A stretch of 64,000 nucleotides of DNA from Trypanosoma brucei (lineage: Eukaryota): contig CP000070.1 of the NCBI GenBank assembly GCA_000002445.1, positions 768,001 to 832,000 on the forward strand, written 5' to 3'. Of the stretch, positions 1,816 through 56,976 are shown piece by piece. Each line of letters opens with the position of its first letter. The first letter of the stretch is position 1. Under the pieces are notes generated by a model. It saw only the letters and a list, made by a program, of their open reading frames with translations, was not told the origin of the DNA and did no database searches. A program made the position numbers and the translations under genes.

Positions 1816-2087
1816 TGAGAGCACTTCGCTTCGCTTCCGCATGATCAGGAGTACGTCACCTTTAAGCAATTACTCACAAAACATATATGTATGTTTTTAT
1901 ATACATACCTGCGCGCATACGTTTTCCCTCCTGCACTCAAAAAAAAAAAAACAGCAACTTTTGTTTCACTTTTGACAATACTTAGTATATCCCAGTGAAC
2001 AGACCGCGCCTCGCTGTGTTGGCCGATTTTCCGTCCTCGCCTGTTTTTGTCACTATCGTTATTAACTGTCGCGCCCCACCCGCGTGT

Positions 2088-9913: not shown

Positions 9914-10004
9914 GGTATTAATTCCAGAGTGAGTTGAAGGTACATCACTACACTTTGTACACAATCGGGTGGATGTATGTTTGCAGTTATTTGCGTCTGT
10001 GTCT

Positions 10005-10008
<4 letters not shown>

Positions 10009-10070
<62 letters not shown>
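10009..10070. repeat. (GT)~31 dinucleotide microsatellite, preceded by (TCTGTG)n
   Basis: Direct reading shows gtctgtgtctgtgtctgtgtgtgtgtgtg...gtgtgt. The track ORF 9934-10218 translates it as CVCVCV. Confidence 0.95.
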
Positions 10071-30591: not shown

Positions 30592-32280
30592 ATGGTGAAA
30601 ACGGTGTCGTCGTTGAATTCGGTGGATAAACTCTCACATGGAACGGTTAGTGAATCCTCATCCCGCGCGCAAGGTCAGTGCCCGCAACGTGTGTTGCGAG
30701 AGTTGAGGGACTACTTGAGCATAACACCCCACAATGAGGCAGACGGCTTAACAGAAGCATATCTCCTGCGCTGCTTAGAGGCCACCGAACATTCCATTCC
30801 GAAAACGGTACAACTTCTAAGGCAGCGGCGTGTATTTGAGCAAACTTTCCCCACCATTCGGCTGACACCCCAGGTTCTAACGGCTTTACGTAGTGGTGCA
30901 ATTTCCACCATTGGCCGGGACCTGCAAGGCCGACTTGTACTGTATATCCACCCAAAGTGCTTTAAGCAGGACCCGCTAGACGAACAGGAAACTCAGCGCC
31001 TATTTGTTATCGTTATGGAGTACGCCCTGGGGTGTTGCACAGCGAACCAAGCACCTCAGCAGGTGTTAACGACAGAGTCTCCACGTGTTGTACACACAGA
31101 TAGAAGGACTTCTGCTAGTGAAGTGCAGAAGCAACAAATTGTCGTCCTAGTAAACGAAGAAGGCTCCTCGTGGCATTCTAGTAATATGGCTCTATCTAGG
31201 GCAAAATCACTGCTTGCGCTGTTGACAAAATACTACCCTAGGTTGGTTGTGCAAATACTTCTTTATCAACCATCGTGTGATGTTAAGCTGTTGGTGAAGC
31301 ATGTCCTTCCGAGCGGCCCGGCAGCGTCAGGTGCACTGACTGCAGTAGAAGTGGTGACACCGAATCATATTCAAAAGTATATTAGTCCCACAACACTTCC
31401 TGAGGAACTCGGCGGTACAAGCAATTTTGTGAGCTCCTCCTCTTCTTCCGCATTTGCCGATGCCGTGCTCCGCCACTGGTTTCTGGAAACGAGTTACCTT
31501 CTGACGGAAGATGCCTCGTCACGACCCATCTGGAAGTTGCCACCGTGCACAGTTGCAGCAGCTGGATGGTCGAACCTTCTTGCTCGTGCCTCGGCTGCGG
31601 CTGTAGCAAAATGTGGGACAACAAATTACGTTGCAATAACTGACGGTAATGAGGGAGCGGATTACCATGTAGATCCGCTCAGCGGCGAGGTGAACAGGGA
31701 GCAACTCCACGCGCGTGTGGATAACTGGGTGCAGGAGTCCCACGTGATGTACTCTCGATGTCGCGGTCAGATCCGGTGTTCTAGCGCTGAAGCGGAAAAT
31801 GATGACGGCGGCGGCTCGATCCTCTCCGATGTGCATTTTTTGTCCTGCCGTGAAGCGGAGTTATCGACCTCGGATGTATGGTTGGGTGTGGATGGGTTTA
31901 ACAGCGCAGCAGAGAGGGAAGCGTTGCTCAGGGAGCTGCAGAATGAGCGCAATCGCCGCTTTGCGATGGAAAAACAACTTTTGAACAGCCGAACGAGCCT
32001 TGGCACTACCACCCAGTTGGATGCGCAGGTGACCGAAAAGATAGAGGAAGCTCTGAAGACAGCACGTGTGTCGCTGAATATGTTAGTTATGAACGTTGTT
32101 GCGTGTGCGCAAGAGTCTGAAGCCTGTGGGAACCCTCCTACACTCAGGCAACTATTAGATCTCACCCTCACAACTATTGAGGGTGGAACGAGTGAAGTGC
32201 AGAAAGTTTCAAACATGAAGTCACCTAAGTTGGTGAAGAAAAAGAAAGAGGACAAATCCTCCTGTTGTACGGTAATGTGA
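30592..32280 (+). CDS. Sec14-like / CRAL-TRIO lipid-binding domain protein
   Basis: The N-terminal CRAL_TRIO_N-like helix pair is EAYLLRCLEATEHSIPKTVQLLRQRRVFEQ. The CRAL-TRIO core follows (GRDLQGRLVLYIHPKCF...QRLFVIVMEYAL...QQIVVLVNEEGSSWHSSN...LLTKYYPRLVVQILLYQPSCDVKLLVKHVLP). There is a ~280-aa C-terminal extension with a coiled-coil. Confidence 0.7.
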   Translation: MVKTVSSLNSVDKLSHGTVSESSSRAQGQCPQRVLRELRDYLSITPHNEADGLTEAYLLRCLEATEHSIPKTVQLLRQRRVFEQTFPTIRLTPQVLTALRSGAISTIGRDLQGRLVLYIHPKCFKQDPLDEQETQRLFVIVMEYALGCCTANQAPQQVLTTESPRVVHTDRRTSASEVQKQQIVVLVNEEGSSWHSSNMALSRAKSLLALLTKYYPRLVVQILLYQPSCDVKLLVKHVLPSGPAASGALTAVEVVTPNHIQKYISPTTLPEELGGTSNFVSSSSSSAFADAVLRHWFLETSYLLTEDASSRPIWKLPPCTVAAAGWSNLLARASAAAVAKCGTTNYVAITDGNEGADYHVDPLSGEVNREQLHARVDNWVQESHVMYSRCRGQIRCSSAEAENDDGGGSILSDVHFLSCREAELSTSDVWLGVDGFNSAAEREALLRELQNERNRRFAMEKQLLNSRTSLGTTTQLDAQVTEKIEEALKTARVSLNMLVMNVVACAQESEACGNPPTLRQLLDLTLTTIEGGTSEVQKVSNMKSPKLVKKKKEDKSSCCTVM

Positions 32281-32311
32281 AATTAACATTAGACTCTTCA
32301 CTCTTTGAACA

Positions 32312-32331
32312 ATTATTATTATTATTATTAT
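32312..32331. repeat. (ATT)6 trinucleotide repeat
   Basis: Direct reading shows aattattattattattattatt. Confidence 0.8.
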
Positions 32332-33640
32332 TTCAAATTAATCGGTGCTGTTATCAGTGTCAGAAGTCGTTTTTTTTTTGCAGTTTTTTCTTCTTGGTTT
32401 TCCAGCGAGCGCGATAGGGCAGTAGAGGTTTGCGTGCGTACGTTCTATCTTTCGTTTCAACATTGTGCAAAGTTTGGTGTGTTTTTTGCGGTGGGCACAA
32501 CTAATATTATTCACGTTGCCGAGAGAAATTAAAGGAAATGGTTCCTGTAATCGGTAATTCTCAGCGCGGAGCGAAGTTGTGCTGCTGTCCAACTTTTACT
32601 TTTTCCTTCTCCGTGTGTGGGTCTGGGTGAGTATGTTACGCAAGGTAGTGGGAATATCGATTGTGGTAAGTTGTTTTATTCTTCAATCGTTCACTTCCCA
32701 CCACTATTTCGCACTCACCCGCTTACTGTCGTAGCGATGTCTTATAAAGCAGCGATCGTGTTTTTTTTTTTTTCGTACCACACTGTGACGCGAAAAATGT
32801 CCTCTTTGCCGTTGTTTTTCCTTTTTTTTTTTTCAGAGTCTGCGGGAAGTCGTGGGGCGCAGTGGTGGGTTGCCTTTGAAATTTTAGAATATGAAACCGT
32901 GAATCCGCGGCTTCGTTATTTTCGTACGTATACGTGTACATACGTGTACATGTCTACATATGAGAAACATCGAGTAACGTTGAATTATTCACATGTTTCT
33001 CTTGTCTCATTGGGTGTGAGAATAACGGCGCCGCGCCACAGAGTTGTCACACCTGTTATTTGTTCCGTGATGCTGCCATTTTTGGTGTGCATCCCCTCTC
33101 CCCTCCTTTCCCTCCCTTTTGTTTGTTTGTTTCATTGACTTTCGATTCGTCGTCACGCGTTTCTTTCCTTTCATCCCGTTACCTCTTCTTGCCAACATTT
33201 ACGGAAAATATCGTTGGCGTTTCGTTTCGATCGCCTTAATTTTCTTTACTTCTCGTTCCTTTTCTTTCCCTTGAATCGTGATAAGCGGTGAGCGTCACTA
33301 CAGTTTAGTTGGTGATGAAAGGAATATCATTTGACCACATTCCGCCAACTGATGTTGTGTGTTGTTTTCTTTCTTCTTTTCCTGCCGCCGCCATACTTGT
33401 GTGTAGCGGTGGGTGTTTATTTGTCTTTTCTTCGTTTTGTTTTGTTGCCGTTGTTTACATGATTTCAAACAGGTGTTGGTCGAAATGTCGTCGCCATGCA
33501 CGGAAGGGTAGGACGAGGAAAAAGGTTGTTTTGGTGGTGGAGTGGAATATTTAGTTGGACATGGGTTGGCAACTTATTTCGGTTTCTGGTAAGCTGCTAA
33601 AGAAACCAACTTCTCGTGTCGCTGCTTGCCTTTATTAGCT

Positions 33641-33707
33641 CTTGCCCTCTGTCACTCACCTTTTCCTGTCGTTGTGCTCTATCATTCCTATCTCTACTGT
33701 TGCTGTT
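33641..33707 (+). promoter_or_regulatory. Polypyrimidine tract(s) upstream of the dynein heavy-chain CDS, putative trans-splicing signal
   Basis: A C/T-rich run (ctcttgccctctgtcactcaccttttcctgtcgttgtgctctatcattcctatctctactgttgctgttag) is followed by AG dinucleotides. A second tract lies at about 33803-33866. The assignment is inferred from kinetoplastid mRNA-processing rules. Confidence 0.4.
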
Positions 33708-33916
33708 AGTTTTTATTTATTCGGCTATCATCTGTTGGTAATCCGCGACGCATAGTTAAATTTTGATGTTGTTGTTTTGTGCAGTAATTTGTGTACATTT
33801 AGCGCTTGGGCTATGCTTGGACTGCTCTTTCTTTCTTTTTTTCCTCGCTTCGTATCAACATTTAAGACTTTCTGCTCGCTCTCATCATATATTATCTCGC
33901 CTAGTTTGTTTTGCAG

Positions 33917-36900
33917 ATGATGCGGCAGGAAAAGGATAAACAGTTATGTTTGACTGCCGATGAACTTCTTGCAAGTGATGTCGTTGATTGTATTTCCTCC
34001 ATGATGCGTTCCGCAACAAAACCGCAAGTGCGTGAAGCCCTACAAGGTGTTGAACACGAAAAAAATGGTACAGCATTGCACTTGGTGGTTTGTGAGTACA
34101 CACCAACACAAAACCTGAATAATGAAGAAGCGGCGACTACGACGTGTGTTGTAGCGGCCGAAGATCTTACAACTGTTTTCTTTCGTCTGATGGCTACCGT
34201 GTCGCGTGGCGTTACCTCACCAAAATATATGGGGACTGGGCCGATGACTGAAGGTTCTAAAAATGTGGATGGTGGTTCGAGTATGGAAACAGAAGGAGCG
34301 GCCGCACTCCCTAGGGTAACTCGCTGTGTATTTATTACCTCTGCCAGTGGTGGTAACAGCGCGGAAGATATACGGAACGCACCGTCTTCACCGCGCCCCG
34401 CCCCACTGACTCTGTCTCAGTTAAACGTCCATGCGATGGAAATGGATCAACCACTTGGTGATCTGCAGTCACTGCTTCAGCGTGTGTATGAACCCGTGCT
34501 ACGCCAGAGGCGTGAAGATGCGTTGCGTTACAACCTACAGGAATTTGTGAATTCTATGCAGTGTCGTTACCATTTCCTCACGCGGGTGAATCTTATGCAG
34601 TTTGTACATCCCAAGTTGTTGACTGTATGTAGCGTCAATCCTACAGCAGACCTTCATGAACTCGTCGGACTGCTCCACGAAGAAGGTGACGATGTCGATC
34701 TGGATGACGTGTTTGCTATTTGGAGCCCGTGTCGTAATTTGTTGAATGTAGCGTTCGAAGCCGATACCGCTGACGATGGAAATGCCGCAAGGCCCCAAGT
34801 CATAAATCTTAGTGAGGTTGTGGGTGGGGCTCCCCATCATGGAAGTTGTATCGGTGACAACACCAGCCGAAATCATGGCAACAATAATAATGGGGGTGTT
34901 CTCGAGGAGGTTTCGTACTGGCAGGAAGTTCGTCAGTGGATTAACCATATTCGGCGCCAGTTACGCAGTCGCGAGTGGCGCCTCGCGCATTATTTGCTCC
35001 GCCACCGTGTGCCGACGAGCTATGAAAGAGAGTACGAACTCCATAGCAAGCTTGCACATTCGTATGAACAACACGCAAAGGGAGTGCTGCAGTTGCTTCC
35101 ACATATAAATGATGTTAACGATATCACAACTTTCTTAGTAAACGCCTTGCGAATCATCGAGGCGGCTGCACGACCCGGCGCCTATCCGCGAAAGCGCTGC
35201 ACACACTTCGTGAATTGTGTTGTTCACAACATCATGGAACAATTTGTAGCGCTAGCTGATGGTTTGGACGTGTTACACATTCAGCCAGCAGAGAAGCAGT
35301 TGCAGAAGATTGGCGAAATGATGAAGGCCATTGTGGAGTTGCAGCGTTGCCTTGTGGACGGTGTGTTGTCCGCACGCATCGATCAACGGGATGTAGAGGG
35401 GACGACCGTCACTGAAACAAGAAACAGTAGTGTGGCAGGTCAGTGGTGCACGGAGGTGAAGAATCTTTCGGGCTTCGGGCGGTGTTCGTTGCTCCTCGAA
35501 CGAATGAAGCAATTGAAGGATTTTTTGAATGAGCACTTTCACTACTATCGGACGCTGGCGCAAACCTTCGCAGAGGGAGGTGGGAGTGGAAGCACCACCA
35601 CTTCTTTCTGTAGGCATCTGGCGGAAGCCTACAGCCGCTTTACAGCGGACGTTGTTGAGCGCGGTTGTTTGTGGGATGTTTCCCCTACTGGTGCGGGAAA
35701 ATACCAGCGGATTCGTGATTCATACAGTAGCCGGGTTTCCCGTATTGACGACCGACTTGCATTGCATGTAGGAATATCGCTTTCAAACGAGCAAGAAAGA
35801 GACACTTACAACGTCACCACTTCCACTGTGAAGGCAAACACGAGTACGGAGGCGAAAACCTCAGACCCAAGAAGACCAGCAAGGGGACGAGTCGACGCGC
35901 CCACAGCAGGGGGCTCCCCGCTGTATCGCGCCTACTCATGCTTCTGCGTTTTCAGGCGTGAGAAGGTATTGGCTGTCTTGGCGAGTTTTCGCACAGCTCT
36001 TCGTGAGCAGATTGACCGAGAGATTAACGACATTTGCGAGGAGTACTTTGGCAAAGAGAGTTGTCCCCACATCGTCCGTGCAACCGTAGCTCGACTTGGC
36101 GTAACGGAGGACGTTGGGCGTATGTTGTGGGAAAGATCTCTTCAACGACAGTTGGAAACTCACATGGAGCGCCGTGAGGAGATTTCGGAGCATGGCTGGC
36201 GTCAGCTACTGCTTCTCCGCACTCTTGAGCATCGCTGGTGCCTTAACGAGTCATTAGCACGTTTTTTTGGGGCCCGATTGCAAGACCTTGTTGTAGAAGG
36301 TTTTGCTGCAGGGTCAGAGGTGCACGGTACGGCATATGCACTTGCTTTCCTTAGTTTGGTGCACTCAAAGAATGAACTAAGGTGGTCGCGTGATCCTCAT
36401 ATTCAGAGCGCGCGGCAATATCTGGATGAAAATAGCCCACAATCTTTGGAGAAGGCCAGACTGCGCTTGGTTCTCCTTCGCAAGGGTTCTTCGTGGGGTA
36501 GCAAACAATCGGAGCCGTGGGACGTGCTTAACTTCCGCGATAGTATCGCGCAAAAGTTGAACGAACATGTCGAACGGTGGTGTAATATCGTGCAGAGTAA
36601 GTTTTTGCATGTGGACATGGTGGAGGAAACAATGGCAATGAAGGGACCTTTCTTAAGGTTATCATATGTAGAAAGAGGCGTTGGTACGGCCGGTGGTAAC
36701 AGTGATAAAAATAATAATTTCCATAGAAATAACGAAGGTAATATTGATGGTGTTTCCCGGGGAGAACAAGTGCTTGTGCCGAATATCCCACAGGAAATGT
36801 ATGCCTTTCTGCGTGACTTTTATACATTGGAAAGCGTACAGTTGCAGGAGAAGCACAAACAACTGTTCGGCAATATCCGCTGCTTCTTTCTGAAAAATGA

Positions 36901-39900
36901 AGCGCGTTTCCGCATAGCCAACTCCTTCAGGGATCTAACTCGCGTTTTTGAAGAGGCAGTTGGAGATGAGGAGGAACTCATGGCACATCTCATAACAGAC
37001 GAGTACGCGCAGGTGTATGGGTGTCTTGTTGACGGTGCCAAACTCACGTGGTTGGAAGAAGATAAATTGCTGGAGTTTATACAGCGTCTCTCGTGCCGCG
37101 TTTATAATTTTTGCTCGGCCGCGTCGAGTGTGCGAACGGCAGTGGATGATGTAGAGCGCATACTGCAGCAATTGCATAGCCAAACATTCGCTGCGCAAAG
37201 CATCGTGGAGAAGGTAGAAAAGTTGTGCGGAATCGTGAAGCAGTTAGGTTCCGAAGGCAGCAGCAGAGAATGGTACGTGCAACGCATTCAACCACGCCTG
37301 GATGCTGCACTGTTGCTGCAACTGCAGGCCCATCTACACCGATGGACTGTGGAATTTCTGTCAATGGGGCGTGACCCACGCTTCCTTGACCCCGCTTCCT
37401 GTACCGAAGAGTATAAGTTGCGGCCGTTGCGTATTCGCATGCGCGTACTATTTAAGGGAATTACGCTCGCCACACCAGAAGCCGCTTGCCGGTATCATTG
37501 GTTGAATATCCTCAACAATTCCTTCGCGTGGCTTCATGCGATTCCAGCTCTTCACAGCAGCTTCCGCAGATCCAACCACCAGCACCCCACCGCAACGCCT
37601 TTATTTGGTGGCGGCTCCGTCGTGGAGGTGACAGCGGAAACAGTTTATGGGAGGTTGGTGGATTGTCTGAGTTCTGAGGTGCTCGCAGAGCCCATGACCG
37701 CTATTGACAAAAGCATCCAAGAGGCCTTTGATGTGGAAAAACAGTGGAGGCGGGGTCAACAACTGTTGAACCTGGAGGTTGGAGTTCTTCAGCAAAAGCT
37801 CGGTGACGATTTAGTGAAGTGGGAAGAAGCGCTGCGCCATATTCGTGAGTTTGCAGATACATTGATGAACCATACACAACCCAGTACACTTCTTGGTGGC
37901 ATTCTCATCGTCGCCAGTGACGCACAGAAAGAGCTCGGCCGAAAATTAGACAACATGACGCAATATATTAATTCGCGCTACCGAGAGGTGGTGAGTAAGC
38001 ATCTAGAGTTGTGCCATCGTCGTATCACCGAAGAACGAACGGATGTTGAGAAATGTGACGTTATCAACAGTATCGATGACGCCTGCATGTTTATCTGTGA
38101 GCTTCCCACAATTTACACCAAATTAGAGGAAACAGGCAGGAGAATCGCTCCACTTGTTGCCGCCGAGGAGTATTTGAAGAACCAGGGCCTCTCACTACCT
38201 GACTCCGGTGTTTGTGTGAAAAAAGTGAAAGAGGAGCATCAAGCCTACAAGGATCTTATAGCACGGAAAGTGAAGGCGGTTGAACTGCGTCGACCATTCC
38301 TACGTGAAAACGCCAAACAAAAGGGGAAGGGTCTTCAGGACGATGTGGCCGAATTGGAAAAATCACTGGCAGAACTTGACAAGCAAATTCAACTGAGAGA
38401 GCGGCAAGATAAACAGCATCTGGAAGAGCTAGCGGATTCTATGCAAGAACGCTTCTACGACATACAAAAGCAAATTTTGGTGCTAGAAAAACAACATGAT
38501 AGGTTGACACTGCTGTGCAAAGTGTTGGGGATACAACCCGTAGATGAAGTAAGGTTGCAGAGTGTTGCTTCGCGCACGGAAAATCTCAGGTGGGTATTCG
38601 GCCACTTACTAGAGGTGTGCAGAAAACTAAATAGGCTGAGTCAGACTCCCTTTTCTGAGGTGGATCCGCAGCGGTTACATGAGGATATCATATCGCTGCA
38701 GGCTGAGGTGCAGGAATTTCCTCCCGGCGTTCGTGGCCACCCAGCTCATAACGAACTTGTCCAGCTTATTGAAGAGCGCCTGGCGGCTCGCTGGATTATC
38801 CACGAGTTAAGCTCAAGGGCGATGATGCCCGTTGTGCGGGCGGAGCGTCACTGGTCTCTACTTCGATCGAAGCTTGGTACGCAGTGGAAGTTGGAAGAAC
38901 TCACTGTTGGGGATATTTGGCGTAGTGATCCGATGACGCGAGCAAAGATTTACTACGAAGTGTTGGACGTGGCACGAGGTGAGCATCGCTTAGAGACGAA
39001 ACTGGAACAAATAACAGCGTTCTGGAACAATTTTGAGTTTAATACAACAATATACAAAAAGAAACACGTACTGATTCGTGGGTGGGACGCGGTGTTCGCT
39101 CAACTCTCCGATGACATCGACACTTTACAGGGCTTTCATCTTAGTCCCTTTTATAGCGCATCTCACATCGCCGCCAGTGTGACTGAATGGGAGAGTCGCC
39201 TTAATTTGCTTCTGAAAGTACTGGAGGTGCTTATGGGCGTGCAGCGAAGGTGGGTACATCTTGATGGGTTATTTAGCAGTAACGAAGATATCTATCAGCA
39301 GCTATCTAGTGAGGGAATGCAATTTGATAGAGTAACTTGGGAGTTATGGAATCTGATGCCGTATAGATCCTCACCCTTTGGTTCGACCGAGACGGCAGCT
39401 GATTTGGAGAATGTTGTGGTGAGGACGCAGGACTTTCTCGAGGAGAAGCGCCTTCTTTCATCGTTGGAACGGGTAGATGGGCAGTTAACGCGAGTACAAC
39501 GGGCCCTAAACAGATATTTAGATAGGCAGCGCCGCTTGTTTCCACGCTTCTTCTACGTCGGCGATGACGATCTGCTGGAAACGCTTGGCAACAGCAACAA
39601 CGCCACGTTGATTGCAAAGCATCTCCCGAAGATGTTCACCGCCCTCGCACGGCTTATTGTAAAGGATATGGGTGCCAACGGTCAAGGTTCCGCCGGCTCA
39701 GCTGCTGCTGATTTGCATATCGTTGGATTTGCTTGTGAGGAGGGGGAAGAAGTTGCAACGAATCGATCCATACGGTTGGAGGGCCGAGCACTCCACTTGA
39801 CACTCAATGAGGTGGAAATTGTCATGACTCAAACGTTGAGGCAGCTGACGGTATCTGCTGCAGCTTCGTTAGCTGATGCGGGATGTGTAACAACCGAGTG

Positions 39901-42900
39901 GATTGAGGCCTTCCCGCTACAAGTTGTGTGTTTGGCATTTCAGGTTTGGTGGGCGCAGCTGCAAGAACAAGCCTTAGCCACATGGAAGGCGCAGCAGAAG
40001 CGGGAACCTTCCCTTGCAGTGTCGCGGATGGTTTCACTGCTGGACCAACTCGCACTGGAAGTGACCGCCGTGGGTGTTACGCCCTCGGTACGCCGTGCTA
40101 GCGAAGAACTTATCACACTTGCTGTGTACCAGCGAGATGTGTCCCGATTGATCGAGTTGAAGAACGTTACAGCCGCGGAAGATTTTGAGTGGATGCGCAT
40201 CCTTCGCTTGTACGTCGTTGCCCCCGACACCTATTCGAAGAAAGGCGATGCAGCAACTGATGTCGGTCGTCCCAGAAAAAGCGGCGTGGTCTTGGCCAAT
40301 GAGGTCGATTATCCAGAGGTTCACTGCCGTATGGCGGACGCCTCGTTGATACACGGTTTTGAGTACATCGGATGGTATCGGAGGTTGGTGCAGACTCCTC
40401 TGACAGATCGGTGCTACCTGGCCATGACGCAGGCGCTTCACACACGCCTTGGTGGCTCTCCCGTTGGGCCAGCTGGAACGGGAAAGACGGAGACAGTTAA
40501 GTCATTGGGTGCTCAGCTTGGCCGTCATGTGGTTGTATTCAACTGCACGGACACGTTCGACTTCAGCGCCATTGGCAGAATCCTCATGGGACTCTGCCAA
40601 GTCGGTGCATGGGGTTGCTTCGATGAGTTCAACCGTCTTGAAGAATGTGTGCTTTCCGCAGTAGCACAGCAGATACGGTCGATACAAGAAGCCCTCCGAG
40701 GTGATCTGCACAGTGTCAATCTATCGCGGCAGCAGGTACCGCTGAAAACGAATGTAGCACTGTTCATAACCATGAACCCGGACTTTGCAGACCGCTCTCA
40801 GCTACCGGGAAATCTCAAGCAACTATTCCGAACTGTAACGATGGTGGCGCCAGACCGTGAAGCAATCGCTGAAGTAATGTTGTTTGCTCAGGGATTTCGA
40901 ACAGCGGAGTCGTTGTCGCGGAAGGTTGTTCCGTTATTTGACCTTTGCAGGGAGCAACTTTCACGGCAGTCACACTATGACTTTGGTCTTCGAGCGTTGA
41001 AGTCGGTCCTGGTAATTGCAGGCGAAGCGAAACACGCAGACTGTAAGAGGAACGCCGTGCACGTCCCGGAGACTGCCTCCTCCGCAACTGCGGTTGAAGA
41101 CGACAGTAATGTGAACAGCAGGGAATGTGAATTAATGTTAGGTAGTCTCATCAATAACATCGTCCCTCGCCTCATAAGTGAGGACGTAATCTTATTTTAC
41201 CCGTTGCTCCGCGATTTCTTCCCCGGTCGACCTGTTCCTGATGTATTTGAAAGTTTGTTGCGTTCAACCATTGAAGAGGTGTGCCAAGATACCCACTACA
41301 CACCCACCCCAGCCTGGGTGGAAAAAATTTACCAGCTGTACCGCACGAGGAAAACGCGGCACGGTCTCATGCTTGTCGGACCAAGTGGCACAGGTAAAAC
41401 GTCCTGCTGGAAGACGTTACTCCGTGTAATGGCCCGCCTGAGCACTCAGGAGGGTCACAACGACTTTGATGAGGGTGACCTTGCCAGCCCCTCAAGGAGA
41501 AGTCGAGGGAGGCCCCTTGAAGCGCATGCATATGTGATTGATCCCAAAGCCATGACAAAAGCAGAGCTATTTGGTGTGTTTGAGGCAACCACACGCGAAT
41601 GGAAGGACGGTATCTTCACTGACATTTTACGACGTATTGTGAATAATTCACTTGATACTAACAGTACACAGCAGCAACATTGGATTATATTTGACGGCGA
41701 TGTAGACCCGCTATGGGTGGAGAATCTCAACTCTCTTCTTGACGATTCCAAGATATATACGTTACCCAATGGTGAGCGCTTGAGTCTTCCGCCGTCCGTT
41801 CGCATTGTGTTTGAAGTGCAGGATTTGAGGTATGCAACGCCAGCGACCGTTTCGCGATGTGGAATGGTGTGGTTTAGTCATGGTACGGTACCGGTGTCAT
41901 GCTTGCTGAATCGTCATCTCACTACCTTCCTTCGTGCCCCGATGATTGACAAACGGGGTGGAAAGCGCATCGTTGAGGTGTGTGACGATCACGAGGAAAT
42001 GCAATCGCGGTTATGTGGAGGACACTTCACTCTGCACCGTGCCGCAGCCTCTTCTGGAACAACGACGTTAGCATCGACCCAAAGGGAGCTCACCACCTCC
42101 GATGGAGATGTACGCACTTCGAGAGAAAACAATAAGGCGCACGACTCGTTGACAGAAGATGCATTGAACCGTTCTGCACGGAATAGCGAAAACGTTCCCG
42201 AATCCCCGCCCCCACGGACCCCACATTCCTTCGTCAGTGCGGAGCGAGATATACTGGAGTTGCAGGTGTTTATGGTAGGTGTGTGGACCACAGCGTTTGC
42301 GAAAGGGGGACTGCTGGAGCGTGCTTTCGAGATTATTCACACTGAACGTTACCGGGGGCAAGGTATTATGGAGCACAATGACCTTCAAATACTACGTAGC
42401 GTTCAATCCCTACTGTTGGATGGAATATGGAGTATGTGGCAGGTGCGTGAGAAGTGGGGAGCGCTACCTACAGAGCGCGTCGTGAGGAGCTACGCGGAAA
42501 AGCTTCTTAACTACGCGGTATTTTGGGGTTTTGGTGCAGCACTTAACAACGAATTGCGAAGGCAGCTGCTGGATGATATCGGTTTTCAGCTTTTAGGTCA
42601 ACCCAGGGACCTCACCTTGATGGATGTCGAGCCGGATCCCGTCCACGGCACGTGGCGCACTACTCGGGAGCGGGTGCAGCCCGTTGATGTGGACCCAGAG
42701 GATGTTGGCTTCAGTGATGTGATTATTCCAACGGTGGATGCATGCCGCAACAGAACCTTGCTAGAGGCGTGGATTACTGGGGGTGACGCGGTTATTCTCT
42801 GCGGACCGCCGGGATCAGGGAAAACGATTCTGGTTACCTCATTACTACGTGACTCATTCACACACGAGTCGGTGTTTCTGAATTTTTCCAGCGGTACACG

Positions 42901-45900
42901 GCCTGAAAACATCATACGCGCTCTGGAGCAGTATTGCAGTGTCCACAACCATGCTGTGCACGGGCCGATAATGACACCAACAAGTGGCAAAAGGTTGCTA
43001 CTGTTCTGCGACGAGGTAAACCTACCCGCGCTAGATCAATACGGCACACAGCCTGTGGTGCAGTTCCTTCGACAGCTTGTTGAGCGCAAGGGATACTATC
43101 GCAGTCGTGACAATGTATGGGTAACAGTTGAAGGTGTCCAGGTTATTGGTGCATGTAACCCTCCGACGGACAAGGGTCGAGTTTCTTTGTCTCATAGGTT
43201 TCTTCGCTGGGCGCCGGTGCTGTTTGTAGATTTCCCAACTGAGGAAAGCCTACATGTTATCTACAGTTCGTACTGCCGGGCTATGCTTTCTTTCAGTAGT
43301 CGTCTCCAGCGGTACCACCCCAAATGTTTGGCAGCGGCCATGGTTGATGTTTACACCGCCTCACAAAGCCGCTTTAATACGTGGCAGCAGCCACATTATG
43401 TTTACTCGCCCCGTGAGCTAACCCGATGGATACGTGCACTGCGAGGAGCCATACTAAGCTGGAGTGACCAGCAGAGATGTGAGCTCACAGTGGAAGAACT
43501 TGTGCAACTTGCCATACATGAGGGGCTGCGCATCTTTCAAGATCGACTTGTGCAAAATGAAGAGCGAGAGTGGGCACACCGCAAGGTTGTGGAGTGCTTC
43601 GCAAGGCACTTTACAGATGTCACCAGCAGTCCCGCCCAGCCGCCACTGTTGTTTTCTTCAATTGTTAATGGTGTCTACATGAAACAAACAAAGAGTGAAC
43701 TTGTTCAGTACGTTGAGGAGAAAGTGCGCACCTTTTGCGAAGGGGAAGGGGATACCGAACTTGTCGTGTTAGACACCATGGTTGACCATGTGGTGCGTAT
43801 TGACCGTGTGCTTCGTCAACCGTCGGGTCATATGGTGCTTGTGGGGGCTTCTGGTGTGGGCAAAACAATTATTACACGCTTAGTTGCATGGATGAATGGG
43901 ATGTCGGTGTTTCGCATCGACGTGAACCGTGGTTACCAACTGGCGGACTACGAGCGTGACCTCCGCGAGGTACTCCGTCGCGCCGGTTGCGGACTGGAGC
44001 GTATCTGCTTTATATTCGATGATAGCAACGCAATGGAAACAGGCTTTCTCGAGTATATTAATGCACTTCTGCCTTCCGGTGAGATTCCTGGTTTGTTTGA
44101 TGGCGATAAGTGGGCAAAACTCATGGACGATATTCGTGCGAGTGTTGAGGAGCAACAGTCGCTCAAAGCTACTAGCGGGACCACCCAACACCTGCCCCGC
44201 GTTTTGCAGCACCACCAACACGAGCGAGAAGGAAACGAACTTCACAATTCTGCGCGTACGTCACTCTTCGACAGGAGCTCAACTATGAACCGAAGGGATT
44301 TTGGCGCACCCATGACCGGTGGAGGATATGACTTCGACCGTCATCCACTCCTGTTAAATGAAACAGCAGGTCCTATGCTGACTAGCGACTACATCGACAT
44401 TACATCAGAGCAGGTGCTTTACCGCTGGTTTGTTAACAACGTTCGGCGGAATTTACACGTTGTGTTCGTTACTGACCCGTCGACAAAAGAGTTTGCCGAC
44501 CGTGTCGTGACAAGCCCTGCTCTCTTCAACCGGTGCACCATTAACTGGTTGGGGGAGTGGGACCGGACGACTCGGGCGCAGTTGGCGCAGAAGCTCACAC
44601 AAAACATGGATGTAATGTTTTCTTGTCGTGAATCATTCTCAGGTTCAGAGGACACGTCACGGAAGGCGCTTACGGAAGCACTCAGTGCCATTCATGAGGC
44701 TACAGAGGAAGTGAACTCCACTGCTCGGCAACGGAACGCAAACTCAGGCACCTTCATAACTCCACGTCACTTTAGCGACCTTCTACAGCAGCTGAAGTTA
44801 CTCTACGAAGAAAAGAAAGGGCGTTCCATGGAGCAACTTACCCACCTGCGAAGTGGTCTTGCCAAGTTGGCCACTACATCAGAAGAGGTCGGGCAGCAGC
44901 AAACTCAGCTGCGTGAACACGAAGTTTTGTTAGATGAAAGAAGTGCGAAGGCTCAAGCAATGCTGGAGCGCATCGTGAGCGAAACGGAAAGAACGAAACA
45001 AGAAAAGCAAGAGGCTGAGCAGCTGCGACAGCAACTGAAGGAAGAAGAGGACCTCATCCTCGCCGACAGGGCGCGTGTGGAGCAGCAGCTATCGGAGGCG
45101 GCACCTGCACTACGCGAAGCCGAGGAGGGATTGAACAGCATCAAACAAGAGTATCTACGTGAAATGCGTGCATACACAACGCCACCAACCATGGTTAAAC
45201 GCGTGTTGGAGACGGTACTTGTTGTAATGGGCGAAAGGCGCGCGGGTGAATGGGACGTCATAAAACACTACGTTCGTCGTGATGATTTCATTGCCAGCGT
45301 GAAGGCGTTCCAGGCACGTGATGTCACCGAAGAAGCCGTCCAAACCGTACGTGGAATGCTGCAGGAAGATGGCTTCACATACGAGGCAGCGATGCGAGCA
45401 TCAAAGGCCGCCGGACCGTTGCTCCAGTGGGTAACTGCACAAATTAATTACGCCATCGTGTATGCTGCCGTGCAACCGCTGCGGAGTCGCATCGATCAAA
45501 TTACTATTACGCAAGGCGCGAAGCAAGCGCAGTTGGAGCGGACGGAAACGGAGATTAGCACCCTTGAAATGTCCTTGCAGCAACTCAAGGAGGATTACCA
45601 GTCGATGGCGGAGGAGATCGCCACTTGCAAGAGCACGATGGGTGTAATCGCTTCACGCTGTGACCGAGCGACCAAGCTTTTGCAACAACTTTTGGAAGAG
45701 CGGGACCGCTGGGGTGCGGAGTCGCTTGGCTTCGACTCCGAAGTTAGTGTTCTCTTAGGCAATTGCATTCTTGCAGCCGCGTCTTTGACGTACTTTGGCT
45801 ACTTTGACGAATACACACGACAGTCACTGCTACTTCCTGTCTGGGTACAGCAGTTAAAGAATTTTAAAATTCGCTGTACGGAAGAGCATTCCAGTGGCTT

Positions 45901-48900
45901 TGTGGATTACCTTGTGACACCGAGTCAGAGACTTGAATGGGAGCAGCAGGGTCTTCCAAAAGACAATCTCTGTGCGGAAAACGCAATGATTCTTCACCGT
46001 AGTCGACGATACCCCCTACTCATTGACCCCAGCGGGGTTGCCACCGCATTTCTGCAGAAGAAACACAAAGATGGAACGATGCGTACCACAAGTTTCACGA
46101 AGAGCGATTATCTCAAGCAATTGGACATGGCCATCCGGTTCGGTTACGCACTTATCATAGAAGACGCGGAGTTCATGGACCCCATTATTGGACCACTTCT
46201 AAAGAACGAGATGCGACGTGTGGGAGGGCGCACGATGACGCGACTTGGTGGCCGTGAGGTGGAAACTACTTCTTCCTTTAGTTTGATTCTCATCACGCGT
46301 GATTCGCACTATCAACCACCTCCCGGAATAGCAGGAAGGGTCTGCCTTGTTAATTTTGCCGTGACACTGTCTTCGCTTGAGTCACAGTGCCGTCATCGGT
46401 TGCTGCTTCACGAACGGGCGGATGTCGATGAGCAGCGCGCCCGCGTCCTGAAGGTTCGGGAGGAGTATTCTGTTCGTGTGCGGGTGTTAGAACAGGAACT
46501 GCTCAAGCTGATTGCGGGAAGTGAAGGAAGTATTCTTGAGAATAATACACTGACTGTTGCACTGGAGCGGCTGAAGGGGGAGACAAAGGCGTTGAAGGAG
46601 GGGATTGTAGAGAGTGATGAATTGATGCGATCCATTACCGCTGTTGAAGAACATTACAAGCCACTTGCAACAGCAGTGTCAAAAGTTTACTTTGTTCTAC
46701 GCTGCTTCTCCCAGTTGCATGGATTGTATCAGTACAGTGTGAAGTTCATCTTCCGCGTATTGAATGACGCCCTTGACCAGCTACCCCCGCCTAGCAATTC
46801 CAACGGCGCGCAGCAGGAAGAAGCGCCCGCGGAAAAAAAAGAGGAGGATGCAGCGCGACTGCAAGTACTCACGAGACATGTGTTTTATCTTCTATATCAC
46901 CGCGCGCGGCGGGGCATGTTCGCGCAGGATCATCTTGTTCTTGCCACCGCCCTGGGTAAGGCGCGTAGTGGCATCGCCGATCCCATCGGGCAACAACTAA
47001 CTATTGAAGAGTGGAATCTCTTCGAAAGTGCGTTAGGCGGGCCGGTGGCAAGCACAGGCGTGTCAATACCAGCTGAAAGTATAAAAGGTGCTGACAGGCT
47101 TGACCAACTCCCCAAGATACTGTCTGGGTGCCGTGTGTGCTCGCCGTCTTCAGCCGCGGTTCTCGCGGAGCTGCTGAAGCTACCACTGTTTGAGCAAGTG
47201 CGGGTTTCACTGAATAACCCGGAGCATGGGGAGGCATGGAGAGCATACTTTGCAGCGGTGGAGCCCTACGCCGAGACGATACCTCCCTTTTCCCGAAAAG
47301 TCAAGAATTTCAGTGCCGATGACGCCAATTGCAGCAGTGTAGGTGGAAGCCATGCTGTGGGGCCCACACGCCGTGCGTTTATAACGGCTTTGCTACTTCT
47401 GCACACCCGCCGTGACGCTTTTGTGCCCGCTGCCTCAGAGTTCCTACGACTCTTTTTTGATGGTGCAGACGTGGCAGTGGGAGACGGGCGTGGCAACTGT
47501 GGGGAAAGCGGTTATCGTGCTATCGCTGGCCATGACGGTGCTAAAGGTGGCATGGGCGACTTTGATTCCTTCTTTTCGGCGGAAGTTCTTGATCTTGTTG
47601 CAATTCAGAAGGAGTTGACTAACACAACCCCACTCATATTAGTGGCGAATGCGGGGAGTGACCCAACGGTGTCGCTGGAGGCAGTGGCGAGTGCAATGAA
47701 TGTTCAACTACATACTGCCGTTATGGGCTCTGCAGACAGTACCGAAGCAGCTGAACGGTTCCTCACGACAGCAACGGTGGATGGTGCATGGGTACTACTA
47801 AAGAATATTCACATTGACCGCGCCTTCGCCGACGTTGTTGTGAGGCACTTGCATCGCGTTTTTGCCGGGGATCAGGTACATGAGGGCTTCCGCCTCATTT
47901 TATCCATGGAGGCGAAGGCACAGCATGTGGTTGGCAACCTTGGGGAGAGAGGTTGTGGTGGAGACGTAATAAATGCACGGTCCCCGCTCGACCTTCCTGT
48001 CAGTTTGGTGGAGTCATCAATCGTTGTGGTGTACGAACCACCTCCAGGTATGAAGGCTTCTCTTCTTCAAACTATTGGATCTCTGAGGGCCCCAACCCAA
48101 CAAGCTCCTTATTCTGCCGACATGGTGCGCATTTATCTTACTGCTGCTTGGTTTCACGCAGTGGTTATGGAACGGCTCCTATATGTTCCACTGGGTTGGA
48201 GCACGCGCTATGAAATCAACGACACGGAATTCTGGCACACATTGCAAGCCGTCAACCGTTGGGTGATGACGACGGAGAGCACCTCTGGAGGAAACACTGT
48301 TGGTGATATTGAGGGAAATCAAGTCTGTAGCGCTAACCGCGAGCATTTCCCATGGTTAGCCCTTCAAACCATAATCGGCACGGCTCTCTACGGCGGTAAA
48401 TTGAGCAACGACTTTGACCAATTTCTTCTAAATTCGTTCTGCACGCAGCTGTTTAGCCCCATTATTTTTGAGGACGACAAGTTTTTCGCATTGCTGGAGG
48501 GCCTATGCGTAAATCAGAAGCTTCGACTCCCTTCCATGGACACATTGAATGACGTTTTGGCGTGGGTAAAGTCCCTGCCGGACCCGCAGCCGCTTCGTTG
48601 GGCACGGTTGCCGGCAAGCGCCTCGCGGTTAATGTTAGAAAAGCAGGCGGTTGCTATGTTGGAACGGCTTGCGATTCTGCGATTTGTTGGTGAGAAAGAA
48701 CATAGTGGCCGCAGCATTGTTGACGGTTGCGCCGCCTACTCGGAGGAGTCAACCATACCGCGCTGTCTAACCGAAATGCAGTGGGCGCAGAAGGTTCGGC
48801 TGTTTTGTTCCTCATGGCGCTCCTCGCTAGAACGACTTGTTCCCGCAGGACAGGTCGTGTCGGCACAATCAGCAGAAACGCCGTCAGGGGGGAGGAGCAG

Positions 48901-49789
48901 CGGAGCAGAACGGTGTAAAGAGGAGCCTGTTTCGGTAATGGTCGACAGGGAATATGCCTTTGCAATGGAACGCCTTCATGAGGTTCTTGATGACCTACAG
49001 GTGGTAGAAAACATTTGCTGCGGAACAGGTAAACCAACGGCAGATCAGCGTGCTCTCATCGACTGGCTGTTAAAGGACCAAATCCCGCCGATGTGGGCAC
49101 GGTCCTATTCTTCTCACACAGCAGTGGCAGAACAGTGGATGATAGATTTTGCGCGTCGGGTTTCTCATGCTTTATATCTACGCGGGGCCATACAGAGGGA
49201 GTCGGGTGGCGCTGTATGCCTCAACCTCGGTCTTCTTTTCTGGCCTGAGGCCTTCGTTACTACAACGAAGCAGCAGACAGCCCGCAGACAGAGTCAGCCA
49301 TTGGAGCAACTGCAAATTCAACTTGACCTCATGCCGGAGGAAGATGTGCGAGCACGAGCTGCTAAAGTTGTAAAGGAGGATGATGTCTGGCATATTGTGG
49401 GTCTGACGCTATTTTCAGCCTCCCTCAAGAAGTGTGACACGGCTAGTGGTGGTGCCGGCTATACGTGTGTATTACTGCCTGACTCATCCACGGCACCTTC
49501 AACGCCTGTTGGGGCGGTGATGAGGTGGAGGCCGGTTGTGTTGTCGAGAACCACCACCGCACCAGACGCTGGTTGCTGTATGGCCCCTGCAGCAAAATCA
49601 TCGGTTCTGACACGGCTAGCCTCGCGTGATAAGAATTCTAATTGCCTCATTGTACCACTATACGCGAGCGATCTACGCAGAGCACTGCTGCAAGTTGTGG
49701 AACTGAGGGTGGACATTAAAAACACGCCAATGCACGCATGGTATGAACGGGGGACATGCCTTGTAGCCTGGTCGATGGAAGCCTACTAG
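33917..49789 (+). CDS. DHC1: Dynein heavy chain, cytoplasmic dynein-1 type (~5,290 aa)
   Basis: The track ORF starts at TTG 33911; the first ATG is at 33917. Four AAA+ P-loops are present in order: [10 protein letters not shown] (AAA1), [10 protein letters not shown] (AAA2), GPPGSGKT (AAA3), GASGVGKT (AAA4). The AAA1 block ...[47 protein letters not shown] matches the cytoplasmic dynein-1 signature ([18 protein letters not shown]...). Axonemal heavy chains have LAQSGAWACFDEFNRI there instead. A coiled-coil stalk and the C-terminal domain are both present. Confidence 0.9.
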   Translation: [5290 protein letters not shown]

Positions 49790-56003: not shown

Positions 56004-56976
56004 TAGTCACAACGATGTTTCCCTCGAAGTGGGAAGGGGACACCAGGTGAGTGTCGCATCCCCAGTTGTGGATCGATACGTCGTCCCTTCTTTCCACACA
56101 AAATCAAGTGATAGCATTTCTGAATATAACTGCACCAAGCAAAGAGTTTTTTTATAAAAAATACACTCCCATGCACTTGTTATTGATGTAAGTTCGAAGA
56201 GCAATTACTGGCATTATTGTTATTATTTATTTATTCTTTTTTACTTCATACGTTGCTTGCTTTCACGTTTTTAATTTTTGTAGTGTGAGACTGCTACTTG
56301 GTTTGTTTGCGTGGGGGGGGAGCAGTTTGGTCTTCACATTCCGCACCAGTTAACTATGATGCGCCGTCTCTTCGGTAAGACAGTGCACTTCTAAGACAGG
56401 GTTTGGGAAATAAGTTCGCATTTACTCGTTTACTCGCCGCCCTCCTTTGATGCAGAAACGTGTGCATGAAAAAAAAAATACGGAGGTGTTTGGTTATCTT
56501 AATTGTCTTATTTCTTTGTGTTTCATCTGGCGATGCTGTGTGAAACAAATGGAAAGGCAATGAGTTGTTACCATTTCTCAACGTGGTTTTCATTTATTTT
56601 TTCTCATCTGGTTTTCTGTTGTTTTACACCTCTTCATTAAAAATGCTTTGGTGTTTTTCTTTCCATGGCTCCTCTATCCATATAGCACATATGTGGTGTC
56701 ATTTTGCTTATCGTTTCGAAGACGGCTGTGCTTTCTCTCCCGTTGTCGACGTGGAGAAGGGGGTACGACTTCATTACGTACATTTGCTATGTTTTACCTA
56801 AAGAGACTCTCCTAACCTTATTTTATTTGGATATATGTTTTTTCCATACTCTTCTCATCACACACTTATCCAGCGTGCGCCACAAGTGCACGTGGTTCTT
56901 TGTCTTTACGGTCCTCACACAGGGGTCTGTGATCACATTAGGCGGTTCTAGGAGCGAGAAAGCAAAAGGGGGAGAA

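What the first reader, a model, noticed from the sequence alone, without database searches (positions are those of the whole stretch)
33917..49789. Over-long (~5,290 aa) cytoplasmic dynein-1 heavy chain with a divergent tail and lineage-specific loop expansions
The motor domain is unmistakably dynein-1 type (LCQVGAWGCFDEFNRLEE, four ordered P-loops), but the protein is about 600 aa longer than metazoan DYNC1H1. The N-terminal ~1,500 aa (dimerisation and intermediate-chain-binding tail) show almost no recognisable identity. Two inter-module loops appear expanded by low-complexity inserts. One is at about nt 42030-42250 (…STQRELTTSDGDVRTSRENNKAHDSLTEDALNRSARNSENVPESPPPRTPHSF…). The other lies after the AAA4 P-loop at about nt 44160-44410 (…SLKATSGTTQHLPRVLQHHQHEREGNELHNSARTSLFDRSSTMNRRDFGAPMTGGGYDFDRHPLLLNE…), where the human protein has only about 30 residues. 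A divergent tail predicts non-canonical accessory-chain interactions.
Basis: partly seen in the sequence, partly recalled or inferred. Interest (0 to 1): 0.5.

Follow-up and report, generated by a model that had tools for sequence, protein, structure and literature searches.

The report
Trypanosome cytoplasmic dynein-1 heavy chain gene
This is the already annotated cytoplasmic dynein-1 motor gene of Trypanosoma brucei, and its roughly 640 extra residues are real but come mostly from many floppy, fast-evolving surface loops plus one conserved extra tail module, so it is an ordinary gene with a few interesting lineage quirks.

Summary
The ORF is real: ATG 33917 to stop 49789, 5,290 aa. It is 100% identical to T. 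b. brucei TREU927 XP_845939.1, "dynein heavy chain, cytosolic, putative" (very probably Tb927.7.3160). It carries the full dynein domain set. It scores about twice as high against human DYNC1H1 as against any axonemal or dynein-2 chain.

The extra 644 aa relative to human are not an artefact. The start is conserved in T. vivax, an in-frame stop lies 15 nt upstream, and three other T. brucei-group assemblies show no indels.

Both flagged inserts exist where stated, each about +78 aa versus human. AlphaFold2 predicts both as disordered. They occupy the same two loops in all trypanosomatid orthologues (5,120-5,791 aa), but sequence and length are not conserved.

Together they explain only about a quarter of the excess. 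At least 20 sites contribute, including a conserved ~113-aa helical tail module shared with a heterolobosean and a diplonemid and absent from human.

The tail is very divergent (14-19% identity) but still recognisable: a Pfam DHC_N1 hit, phmmer E = 1e-24, and a predicted fold that best matches human dynein-1 tails.

Altered partner binding was not tested here. It fits published reports that Euglenozoa lack dynactin. The gene is known; interest is low to moderate.

The parts
33917..49789 (+). Complete CDS of the cytoplasmic dynein-1 heavy chain (5,290 aa plus stop). Identical to T. b. brucei TREU927 XP_845939.1.
33917..38536 (+). Tail, aa 1-1540. It is 14-19% identical to non-kinetoplastid dynein-1 tails. 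The predicted helical-bundle fold best matches human dynein-1 tails.
34883..35770 (+). Pfam DHC_N1 match, aa 323-618 (61 bits, E = 1e-16).
36203..36541 (+). Conserved helical tail module of about 113 aa, aa 763-875. Motifs: GWxxLLxLR...WxLNxxLAxFxG and HGTAxALAxL. Shared with kinetoplastids, Percolomonas and the diplonemid Sulcionema. Absent from human.
38558..39853 (+). Linker (Pfam DHC_N2), aa 1548-1979.
40466..40489 (+). AAA1 Walker A, GPAGTGKT. The Walker B motif CFDEFNR follows at aa 2234.
41378..41401 (+). AAA2 Walker A, GPSGTGKT.
41936..42253 (+). Insert 1, aa 2674-2779, in the loop between the first two helices of the AAA2 small domain. The flanks are conserved among trypanosomatids. 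The core, aa 2707-2764, is hypervariable and predicted disordered. Net +78 aa versus human.
42803..42826 (+). AAA3 Walker A, GPPGSGKT. The Walker B motif LFCDEVN is at aa 3029.
43844..43867 (+). AAA4 Walker A, GASGVGKT.
44009..44029 (+). AAA4 Walker B, FIFDDSN. The catalytic Glu is replaced by Asp. T. vivax has Cys here; other kinetoplastids keep Glu.
44156..44398 (+). Insert 2, aa 3414-3494, in the AAA4 large domain between the helix after Walker B and the helix before strand beta-4. Predicted disordered over aa 3424-3490. Net +78 aa versus human.
44846..45847 (+). Stalk and microtubule-binding domain (Pfam MT), aa 3644-3977. Colinear with human and of canonical length.
47462..47563 (+). Loop expansion in the AAA5/AAA6 region, aa 4516-4549. 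One of several that add +183 aa after aa 4355.
47918..47986 (+). Loop expansion in AAA6, aa 4668-4690.
49538..49618 (+). Loop expansion in the C-terminal domain, aa 5208-5234.

Best explanation
The region encodes the single cytoplasmic dynein-1 heavy chain of Trypanosoma brucei (annotated XP_845939.1, very probably Tb927.7.3160). It is a minus-end-directed microtubule motor.

Shown here:
- The architecture is canonical: tail, linker, six AAA+ modules, a stalk and microtubule-binding domain of normal length, and a C-terminal domain.
- Walker A is intact in AAA1-4 and Walker B is intact in AAA1 and AAA3.
- The 644 extra residues relative to human come from at least 20 separate sites.
- Most of these sites are loops predicted to be disordered, with no repeat or domain signature. 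They sit at the same positions in all trypanosomatid orthologues, but their length and sequence change freely. The two flagged loops, in the AAA2 small domain and the AAA4 large domain, are of this kind.
- One site is a conserved, confidently predicted helical module of about 113 aa in the tail. It is shared with heterolobosean and diplonemid dynein-1.

Inferred:
- The loop expansions are tolerated expansion segments at structurally permissive sites. They accumulated in a lineage where dynein-1 evolves fast and under weaker constraint. That lineage has no dynactin, knockdown gives no cell-cycle defect, and the AAA4 Walker B Glu is lost in African trypanosomes. The expansions are not conserved functional motifs.
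- The tail keeps the canonical fold but probably presents altered partner-binding surfaces.
For: - Identity and class.
- Correct start and no fusion: an in-frame stop 15 nt upstream; the N-terminus is conserved with T. vivax from about residue 10; the T. b. brucei and T. b. gambiense annotations both give 5,290 aa.
- Not an assembly artefact: three other T. brucei-group assemblies show no indels and only 1-13 substitutions over the last 2,536 codons. T. b. gambiense differs at 21 residues with no indels over the full length.
- Distribution of the excess, from offsets to human: tail +228, linker to AAA2 +61, insert 1 +78, insert 2 +78, stalk/AAA5 +10, AAA5s to the C-terminus +183. The alignment shows 20 segments of at least 12 aa, totalling 517 aa.
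- Orthologue lengths: T. vivax 5,270, Phytomonas 5,392, Leishmania 5,601-5,616, two unnamed relatives 5,120 and 5,791, and an unnamed sister-branch sequence 4,751. Non-kinetoplastid sequences are 4,520-4,665.
- The inserts share positions but not sequence. Insert 2 is 82, 78, 25, 61, 11 and 7 residues in six relatives. Identity between T. brucei and T. vivax is 27-33% inside the inserts and 55-65% in the flanks.
- AlphaFold2 gives pLDDT below 50 only at the chunk's own first 11 residues and at aa 2707-2764 and 3424-3490, in an otherwise good model (mean 79.3, pTM 0.78). The model best matches human dynein-1 motors.
- Dictyostelium has its own low-complexity insert in the same AAA2 loop.
- The inserts have no Pfam or PDB sequence match and no tandem repeats.
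- T. brucei and Leishmania axonemal heavy chains are of normal length, 4,112-4,755 aa.
- Purifying selection still acts: pN/pS is 0.19-0.31.
- Euglenozoa lack dynactin apart from p25/p27 (PMC3583065).
Against: - Lack of conservation does not exclude a function for disordered loops, such as phosphorylation or species-specific partners. The flanks of insert 1 are conserved across trypanosomatids, which suggests that part of that insert is structured or functional.
- The identities of three unnamed relatives are unknown, so the timing of the expansions rests on a neighbour-joining tree only.
- The tail model has moderate confidence (pLDDT 70.7, pTM 0.50, 11 sequences).
- Equating this gene with Tb927.7.3160 rests on chromosome, product name and approximate position, not on a sequence look-up.
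- No experiment here shows motor activity or partners.
Confidence: 0.8

Rival explanations
1. The expanded loops are lineage-specific functional modules rather than neutral expansions. They could be regulatory phospho-loops or docking sites for trypanosomatid-specific partners that substitute for dynactin and activating adaptors.
For: - The insertion sites are retained in all trypanosomatid orthologues.
- Insert 1 has conserved flanking motifs: P-x-[VI]-D-x-R-G, G-K-x-F and H-P-x-x-[ED]-R.
- The inserts carry no substitutions among T. brucei-group assemblies, except H2707Y in T. b. gambiense.
- Dynactin is missing from Euglenozoa, so other partners must exist.
Against: - The cores of both inserts differ almost completely in sequence and severalfold in length, even between T. 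brucei and T. vivax.
- They are predicted to be disordered.
- They match no domain family.
- Insert 2 shrinks to 7-25 residues in some relatives.
Confidence: 0.2
2. The over-length is an annotation or assembly artefact, such as a mis-called start, fusion with an upstream ORF, or mis-assembled insertions.
For: None was found. The only a priori reason is that the ORF is unusually long.
Against: - An in-frame stop lies 15 nt upstream of the ATG.
- The N-terminus is conserved in T. vivax.
- TREU927 and DAL972 give identical lengths of 5,290 aa.
- Three other assemblies show no indels.
- Orthologues in other trypanosomatid genera are equally long or longer.
- The excess is spread over at least 20 sites.
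Confidence: 0.01
3. The gene is drifting under strongly relaxed constraint because dynein-1 has become nearly dispensable in trypanosomes. On this view the expansions, the tail divergence and the AAA4 Walker B loss are early decay.
For: - Knockdown gives no cell-cycle phenotype in bloodstream forms.
- T. brucei and T. vivax are only 48% identical overall.
- The AAA4 Walker B Glu is lost in both African trypanosomes.
- Axonemal heavy chains are not expanded.
Against: - A 15.9-kb ORF is kept intact in every species examined.
- pN/pS is 0.19-0.31.
- The AAA1 and AAA3 catalytic motifs, the stalk length and the microtubule-binding region are conserved.
- The motor core is 40-50% identical to distant eukaryotes.
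Confidence: 0.12

Closest known systems
Human cytoplasmic dynein-1 heavy chain DYNC1H1 (for example PDB 5NUG, 7Z8F, 9BLY)
   Same: - Same domain order.
- It is the best-scoring solved relative, at 2,090 bits for the motor.
- The stalk and AAA5 are colinear (855 versus 845 residues).
- The AAA1-4 P-loops are present.
- The predicted AAA2-AAA4 region and the predicted tail both hit it first.
   Different: - The trypanosome protein is 644 aa longer, spread over at least 20 sites.
- The tail is only about 12-19% identical.
- It has an extra tail module of about 113 aa after the position of human residue 675.
- The AAA4 Walker B Glu is replaced by Asp.
- According to the literature, the organism lacks dynactin.
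Dictyostelium discoideum cytoplasmic dynein heavy chain (PDB 3VKG/3VKH)
   Same: - A dynein-1 motor.
- It carries its own low-complexity insertion, rich in Gln, Ser and Thr, in the same AAA2 small-domain loop as insert 1.
   Different: It has no expansion at the AAA4 loop: 8 residues where T. brucei has 86.
Other kinetoplastid dynein-1 heavy chains (T. vivax KAG8348981.1, Phytomonas CCW66307.1, Leishmania enriettii XP_067693173.1)
   Same: - They are orthologues and are all over-long, at 5,270-5,616 aa.
- They have insertions at the same sites and the same tail module.
   Different: - Insert sequences and lengths are not conserved.
- Leishmania and Phytomonas keep the AAA4 Walker B Glu.
Trypanosomatid axonemal dynein heavy chains (PDB 9E5C from T. 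brucei, 9Y6S from Leishmania tarentolae)
   Same: Same superfamily and the same organisms.
   Different: - They score about half as high, at most 1,028 bits.
- They have ordinary lengths of 4,112-4,755 aa, so the expansion is specific to dynein-1.

Membership tests
Cytoplasmic dynein-1 heavy chain (DYNC1H1/DHC1 family) | Dynein heavy-chain architecture: tail (DHC_N1), linker (DHC_N2), six AAA+ modules with the stalk and microtubule-binding domain between AAA4 and AAA5, and a C-terminal domain. | tested here: met
   All Pfam models match in order above their curated cut-offs.
Cytoplasmic dynein-1 heavy chain (DYNC1H1/DHC1 family) | Closer to dynein-1 heavy chains than to dynein-2 or axonemal heavy chains. 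| tested here: met
   - 2,090 bits to human DYNC1H1 and 2,032 to the Dictyostelium chain, against at most 1,118 for axonemal and 1,051 for dynein-2 chains.
- Sources name it 'dynein heavy chain, cytosolic'.
- The published phylogeny (PMC2239267) treats T. brucei as retaining DYNC1.
- I did not build a full class-level phylogeny.
Cytoplasmic dynein-1 heavy chain (DYNC1H1/DHC1 family) | Walker A in AAA1-AAA4, and a catalytic Walker B in AAA1, AAA3 and AAA4. | tested here: inconclusive
   - Walker A is intact in AAA1-4.
- Walker B (DE) is intact in AAA1 and AAA3.
- AAA4 reads FDDSN, with Glu replaced by Asp. T. vivax has FDCRN.
- AAA1, the main hydrolytic site, is canonical.
Cytoplasmic dynein-1 heavy chain (DYNC1H1/DHC1 family) | Dynein-1-type tail: an N-terminal dimerisation domain followed by helical bundles. 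| tested here: met
   - DHC_N1 match.
- phmmer E = 1e-24 to human tail residues 784-1366.
- The AlphaFold2 tail model hits human dynein-1 tails first, at E = 1.7e-17 versus 2e-10 or weaker for axonemal tails.
- The model is of moderate confidence.
Cytoplasmic dynein-1 heavy chain (DYNC1H1/DHC1 family) | Assembly with the IC, LIC and light chains, and activation by dynactin plus an adaptor. | not testable with these tools
   Only the literature bears on this. No good DYNC1I homologue was found in T. brucei or L. major (PMC2239267). Euglenozoa have only dynactin p25/p27 but are said to have intermediate chains (PMC3583065).
Cytoplasmic dynein-1 heavy chain (DYNC1H1/DHC1 family) | Minus-end-directed microtubule motor activity. 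| not testable with these tools
   This is inferred from conservation of the AAA1 motifs, the linker, the stalk length and the microtubule-binding region.

The most novel reading that the evidence does not exclude
The conserved helical module of about 113 aa, inserted in the tail after the position of human residue 675, may be a lineage-specific docking platform. That position lies roughly where the intermediate and light-intermediate chains bind in human dynein (placement from my memory of older mapping work). The module is shared by kinetoplastids, a diplonemid and a heterolobosean. On this reading it lets dynein-1 work with non-canonical accessory chains or cargo adaptors in organisms that lack dynactin, giving a distinct way of assembling and activating cytoplasmic dynein. 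The hypervariable motor loops would then be secondary.
Probability: 0.2. Interest if true: 0.55.

Novelty: already known. Interest (0 to 1): 0.25.

Why it matters
Dynein-1 activation is understood almost entirely from opisthokonts, where dynactin and coiled-coil adaptors are obligatory. Trypanosomatids keep an intact dynein-1 heavy chain under purifying selection, yet they reportedly lack dynactin. Their tail is very divergent and carries an extra conserved module. If followed up experimentally, this gene could show how a dynein-1 works without dynactin. The loop expansions themselves mainly mark permissive sites in the motor. Such sites are useful for tagging and for interpreting alignments, but they are unlikely to be mechanistically important.

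Tried and rejected
1. The search for homologous proteins with the tail (aa 1-1600) returned nothing. With aa 2601-3600 it returned only fragments of 1,723 aa or less and 49% identity or less. That database seems to hold no full-length dyneins, so it gave no kinetoplastid orthologues.
2. I tried to reach orthologues through synteny, using a concatenated query of both neighbouring genes. Only CRAL/TRIO homologues came back. In Leishmania martiniquensis and Novymonas these are followed by a zinc-finger protein of 2,162-2,281 aa, not by dynein. This route was abandoned. The representatives search then supplied full-length orthologues.
3. Mis-called start or ORF fusion: rejected.
4. Assembly artefact: rejected.
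5. Tandem-repeat origin of the inserts: none found.
6. Domain or solved-structure matches for insert 1, insert 2 and the tail module: none.
7. I looked for a spliced leader at the 5' end of the unnamed 4,751-aa relative's contig, to identify its taxon. None was recognisable.
8. Literature searches found no dedicated functional study of trypanosome dynein-1. Only genome-wide screens mention it.
Full report
**What is there**

The window carries one very long ORF on the + strand, 33911..49789. Its first ATG is at 33917 and an in-frame TAG sits at 33902. All ORFs of at least 200 aa in the window lie on the + strand, apart from two that overlap longer + strand ORFs. This fits a kinetoplastid polycistronic unit.

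The downstream neighbours occur on T. equiperdum, T. b. gambiense and another T. brucei-group assembly. The protein is 100% identical over its full length to T. b. brucei TREU927 XP_845939.1 / AAZ12380.1 / Q57YC6, named "dynein heavy chain, cytosolic, putative", 5,290 aa. It differs from the T. b. gambiense protein at 21 residues, with no indels. The gene is thus already annotated with the same boundaries. It is very probably Tb927.7.3160, which a genome-wide RNAi study calls "a cytoplasmic dynein heavy chain" (PMC9464253).

**Class**

Pfam finds the complete dynein heavy-chain set in order: DHC_N1, DHC_N2, AAA_6, AAA_5, AAA_7, DYN_lid, AAA_8, MT, AAA_9, Dynein_heavy, AAA_lid_11 and Dynein_C. 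Against all PDB sequences, the motor scores as follows:

| Target | Bits |
|---|---|
| Human DYNC1H1 | 2,090 |
| Dictyostelium cytoplasmic dynein | 2,032 |
| Best axonemal chain | at most 1,118 |
| Dynein-2 | 1,051 |

Walker B is canonical in AAA1 and AAA3. The dynein-1 assignment is sound. It agrees with the published comparative study, which treats T. brucei as retaining cytoplasmic dynein 1 (PMC2239267).

**Is the extra length real?**

Yes, on five grounds:
- An in-frame stop lies 15 nt upstream of the start.
- The N-terminus is conserved with T. vivax from about residue 10.
- Two independent annotations give 5,290 aa.
- The last 2,536 codons in three other T. brucei-group assemblies have 1-13 substitutions and no indels.
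- Orthologues found by an exhaustive HMMER search with the tail are also over-long.

| Sequence | Length (aa) |
|---|---|
| T. vivax | 5,270 |
| Phytomonas | 5,392 |
| Leishmania spp. | 5,601-5,616 |
| Two unnamed relatives | 5,120 and 5,791 |
| Unnamed sister-branch sequence | 4,751 |
| Non-kinetoplastid dynein-1 chains in the same search | 4,520-4,665 |

The 4,751-aa sequence branches as sister to these in a neighbour-joining tree.

**Where the 644 extra residues lie**

Anchoring on phmmer alignments to human DYNC1H1 gives cumulative offsets:

| Position reached | Cumulative offset (aa) |
|---|---|
| End of the tail | +228 |
| End of the AAA2 large domain | +289 |
| After insert 1 | +367 |
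| After insert 2 | +451 |
| aa 4355 | +461 |
| C-terminus | +644 |

An 11-sequence full-length alignment shows 20 separate segments of at least 12 aa, totalling 517 aa, that are absent from at least three of four canonical-length references. They contribute about 78 aa each, roughly a quarter of the excess. The stalk and AAA5 are colinear with human (855 versus 845 residues), so the stalk length is preserved.

**The two inserts**

*Insert 1* (aa 2674-2779) lies between the first two helices of the AAA2 small domain. *Insert 2* (aa 3414-3494) lies in the AAA4 large domain, between the helix after Walker B and the helix preceding strand beta-4. In that interval human has about 12 residues and Dictyostelium 8.

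An AlphaFold2 model of aa 2601-3600 has mean pLDDT 79.3 and pTM 0.78. It is confident everywhere except the chunk's own first 11 residues, aa 2707-2764 and aa 3424-3490, where pLDDT falls below 50. Its best structural matches are human dynein-1 motors.

All trypanosomatid orthologues have insertions at both sites, but the cores share neither sequence nor length. Insert 2 is 82 aa in T. vivax, 78 in Leishmania, 25 in Phytomonas, and 61, 11 and 7 in the unnamed relatives. Identity between T. brucei and T. vivax is 27-33% inside the inserts and 55-65% in the flanking motor.

Dictyostelium independently carries a low-complexity insertion, rich in Gln, Ser and Thr, in the same AAA2 loop. No Pfam family, solved structure or tandem repeat matches the inserts.

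I read these as tolerated expansions of disordered surface loops at permissive sites. One caveat applies. The flanks of insert 1 are conserved among trypanosomatids (P-x-V/I-D-x-R-G, G-K-x-F, H-P-x-x-E/D-R), so part of that insert may be structured.

**The tail**

It is strongly divergent. It is 14-19% identical to non-kinetoplastid dynein-1 tails, whereas those tails are about 25% identical to one another. Even T. brucei and T. vivax share only 38%. In 1.84 billion representative proteins, only 20 match aa 1-1200 at E < 1e-3.

It is nevertheless recognisable:
- DHC_N1 matches aa 323-618 (E = 1e-16).
- aa 1007-1594 align to human 784-1366 (E = 1e-24), with weaker colinear matches further upstream.
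- An AlphaFold2 model of aa 1-1200 (pLDDT 70.7, pTM 0.50) consists of helical bundles. Its best structural matches are human dynein-1 tails, at E = 1.7e-17 and 12-14% identity, ahead of axonemal tails.

Part of the extra tail length is disordered loops: low pLDDT at aa 93-130, 281-325, 491-513, 634-665 and 920-948.

About 113 aa (aa 763-875) form a confidently predicted helical module with conserved motifs. It is present in every kinetoplastid orthologue, in Percolomonas (Heterolobosea), in the diplonemid Sulcionema specki and in four unnamed environmental proteins. It is absent from human and from two canonical-length references, and it has no Pfam or PDB sequence match. It is inserted right after the conserved GW motif, which corresponds to human residue 675. 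In human dynein the intermediate chain contacts helical bundles 4-5 and the light-intermediate chain contacts bundles 6-7 (PMC5473941). Placing residue 675 in that general region rests on my memory of older mapping work and was not tested here.

**Context from the literature**

Wickstead and Gull found no good DYNC1I1/2 homologue in T. brucei, L. major or Giardia (PMC2239267). Hammesfahr and Kollmar found only dynactin p25 (plus p27 in T. cruzi) in Euglenozoa, but state that Euglenozoa do have heavy and intermediate chains (PMC3583065).

Knockdown of Tb927.7.3160 did not perturb the cell-cycle distribution in bloodstream forms (PMC9464253). I found no dedicated functional study.

Loss of dynactin, whose filament and p150 subunit contact the tail and the intermediate chain in opisthokonts, would plausibly relax constraint on the tail. 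This is an inference.

**Constraint**

The gene is not decaying:
- pN/pS is 0.19-0.31 over the motor half among T. brucei-group genomes.
- The AAA1 and AAA3 catalytic motifs are conserved.
- The 15.9-kb ORF is intact in all species examined.

It does evolve fast. T. brucei and T. vivax are 48% identical overall. The AAA4 Walker B glutamate is Asp in T. brucei and Cys in T. vivax, while other kinetoplastids keep Glu. Trypanosomatid axonemal heavy chains in PDB 9E5C and 9Y6S have ordinary lengths of 4,112-4,755 aa, so the expansion is specific to dynein-1.

**Verdict**

The gene and its class are already known, and the loop expansions are real, lineage-wide and most likely of little mechanistic weight. 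The most interesting residue of the analysis is the conserved tail module, combined with the reported absence of dynactin.

Noticed in passing
window 36203-36541 (aa 763-875 of the dynein): A conserved, confidently predicted helical module of about 113 aa is inserted in the tail after the GW motif. It is shared with all kinetoplastid orthologues, Percolomonas (Heterolobosea), the diplonemid Sulcionema specki and four unnamed environmental proteins. It is absent from human DYNC1H1 and has no Pfam or PDB sequence match.
   Followed up: partly
window 44009-44029 (aa 3365-3371): The AAA4 Walker B motif reads FIFDDSN, so the catalytic Glu is Asp in T. brucei. It is Cys in T. vivax (FLFDCRN). Leishmania, Phytomonas and all other sequences compared keep FDESN or FDEAN, which retain the Glu. 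This suggests AAA4 hydrolysis was lost or weakened in African trypanosomes.
   Followed up: partly
window 41936-42035 and 42212-42253 (flanks of insert 1): The edges of insert 1 carry motifs conserved among trypanosomatids: P-x-V/I-D-x-R-G, G-K-x-F and H-P-x-x-E/D-R. They surround a hypervariable core, so part of this insert may be a small structured element.
   Followed up: partly
L002 and L003 (Leishmania martiniquensis, Novymonas esmeraldas) compared with window 30592-33916: The upstream CRAL/TRIO-domain gene has homologues in Leishmania and Novymonas. There they are followed by a 2,162-2,281-aa protein (the Leishmania one has a zf-C3HC4_3 RING-finger hit), not by the dynein gene. Either synteny is broken here or those are paralogues.
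   Followed up: no
window 1-2000: This stretch is AT-rich (GC 0.376 against about 0.5 elsewhere) with strong positive GC skew (+0.27). It contains (AT)n and (TG)n microsatellites at 552-630. Another (TG)36 lies at 9998-10070.
   Followed up: no
window, whole: All ORFs of at least 200 aa are on the + strand, apart from two that overlap longer + strand ORFs, and no tRNA genes were found. This is typical of a single kinetoplastid polycistronic transcription unit. Neighbours include a Lactamase_B_2 protein, an AP-complex mu subunit and two protein kinases.
   Followed up: partly
window 25578-28484 and 56704-58041: Two long ORFs, of 968 aa and 445 aa, have no Pfam match at E <= 0.001.
   Followed up: no
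P0126 compared with P0146 (T. vivax orthologues): The T. vivax Y486 database entry (5,025 aa, labelled 'fragment') lacks stretches that are present in a newer T. vivax entry (5,270 aa), including the AAA1 P-loop region. It should not be used for length comparisons.
   Followed up: partly
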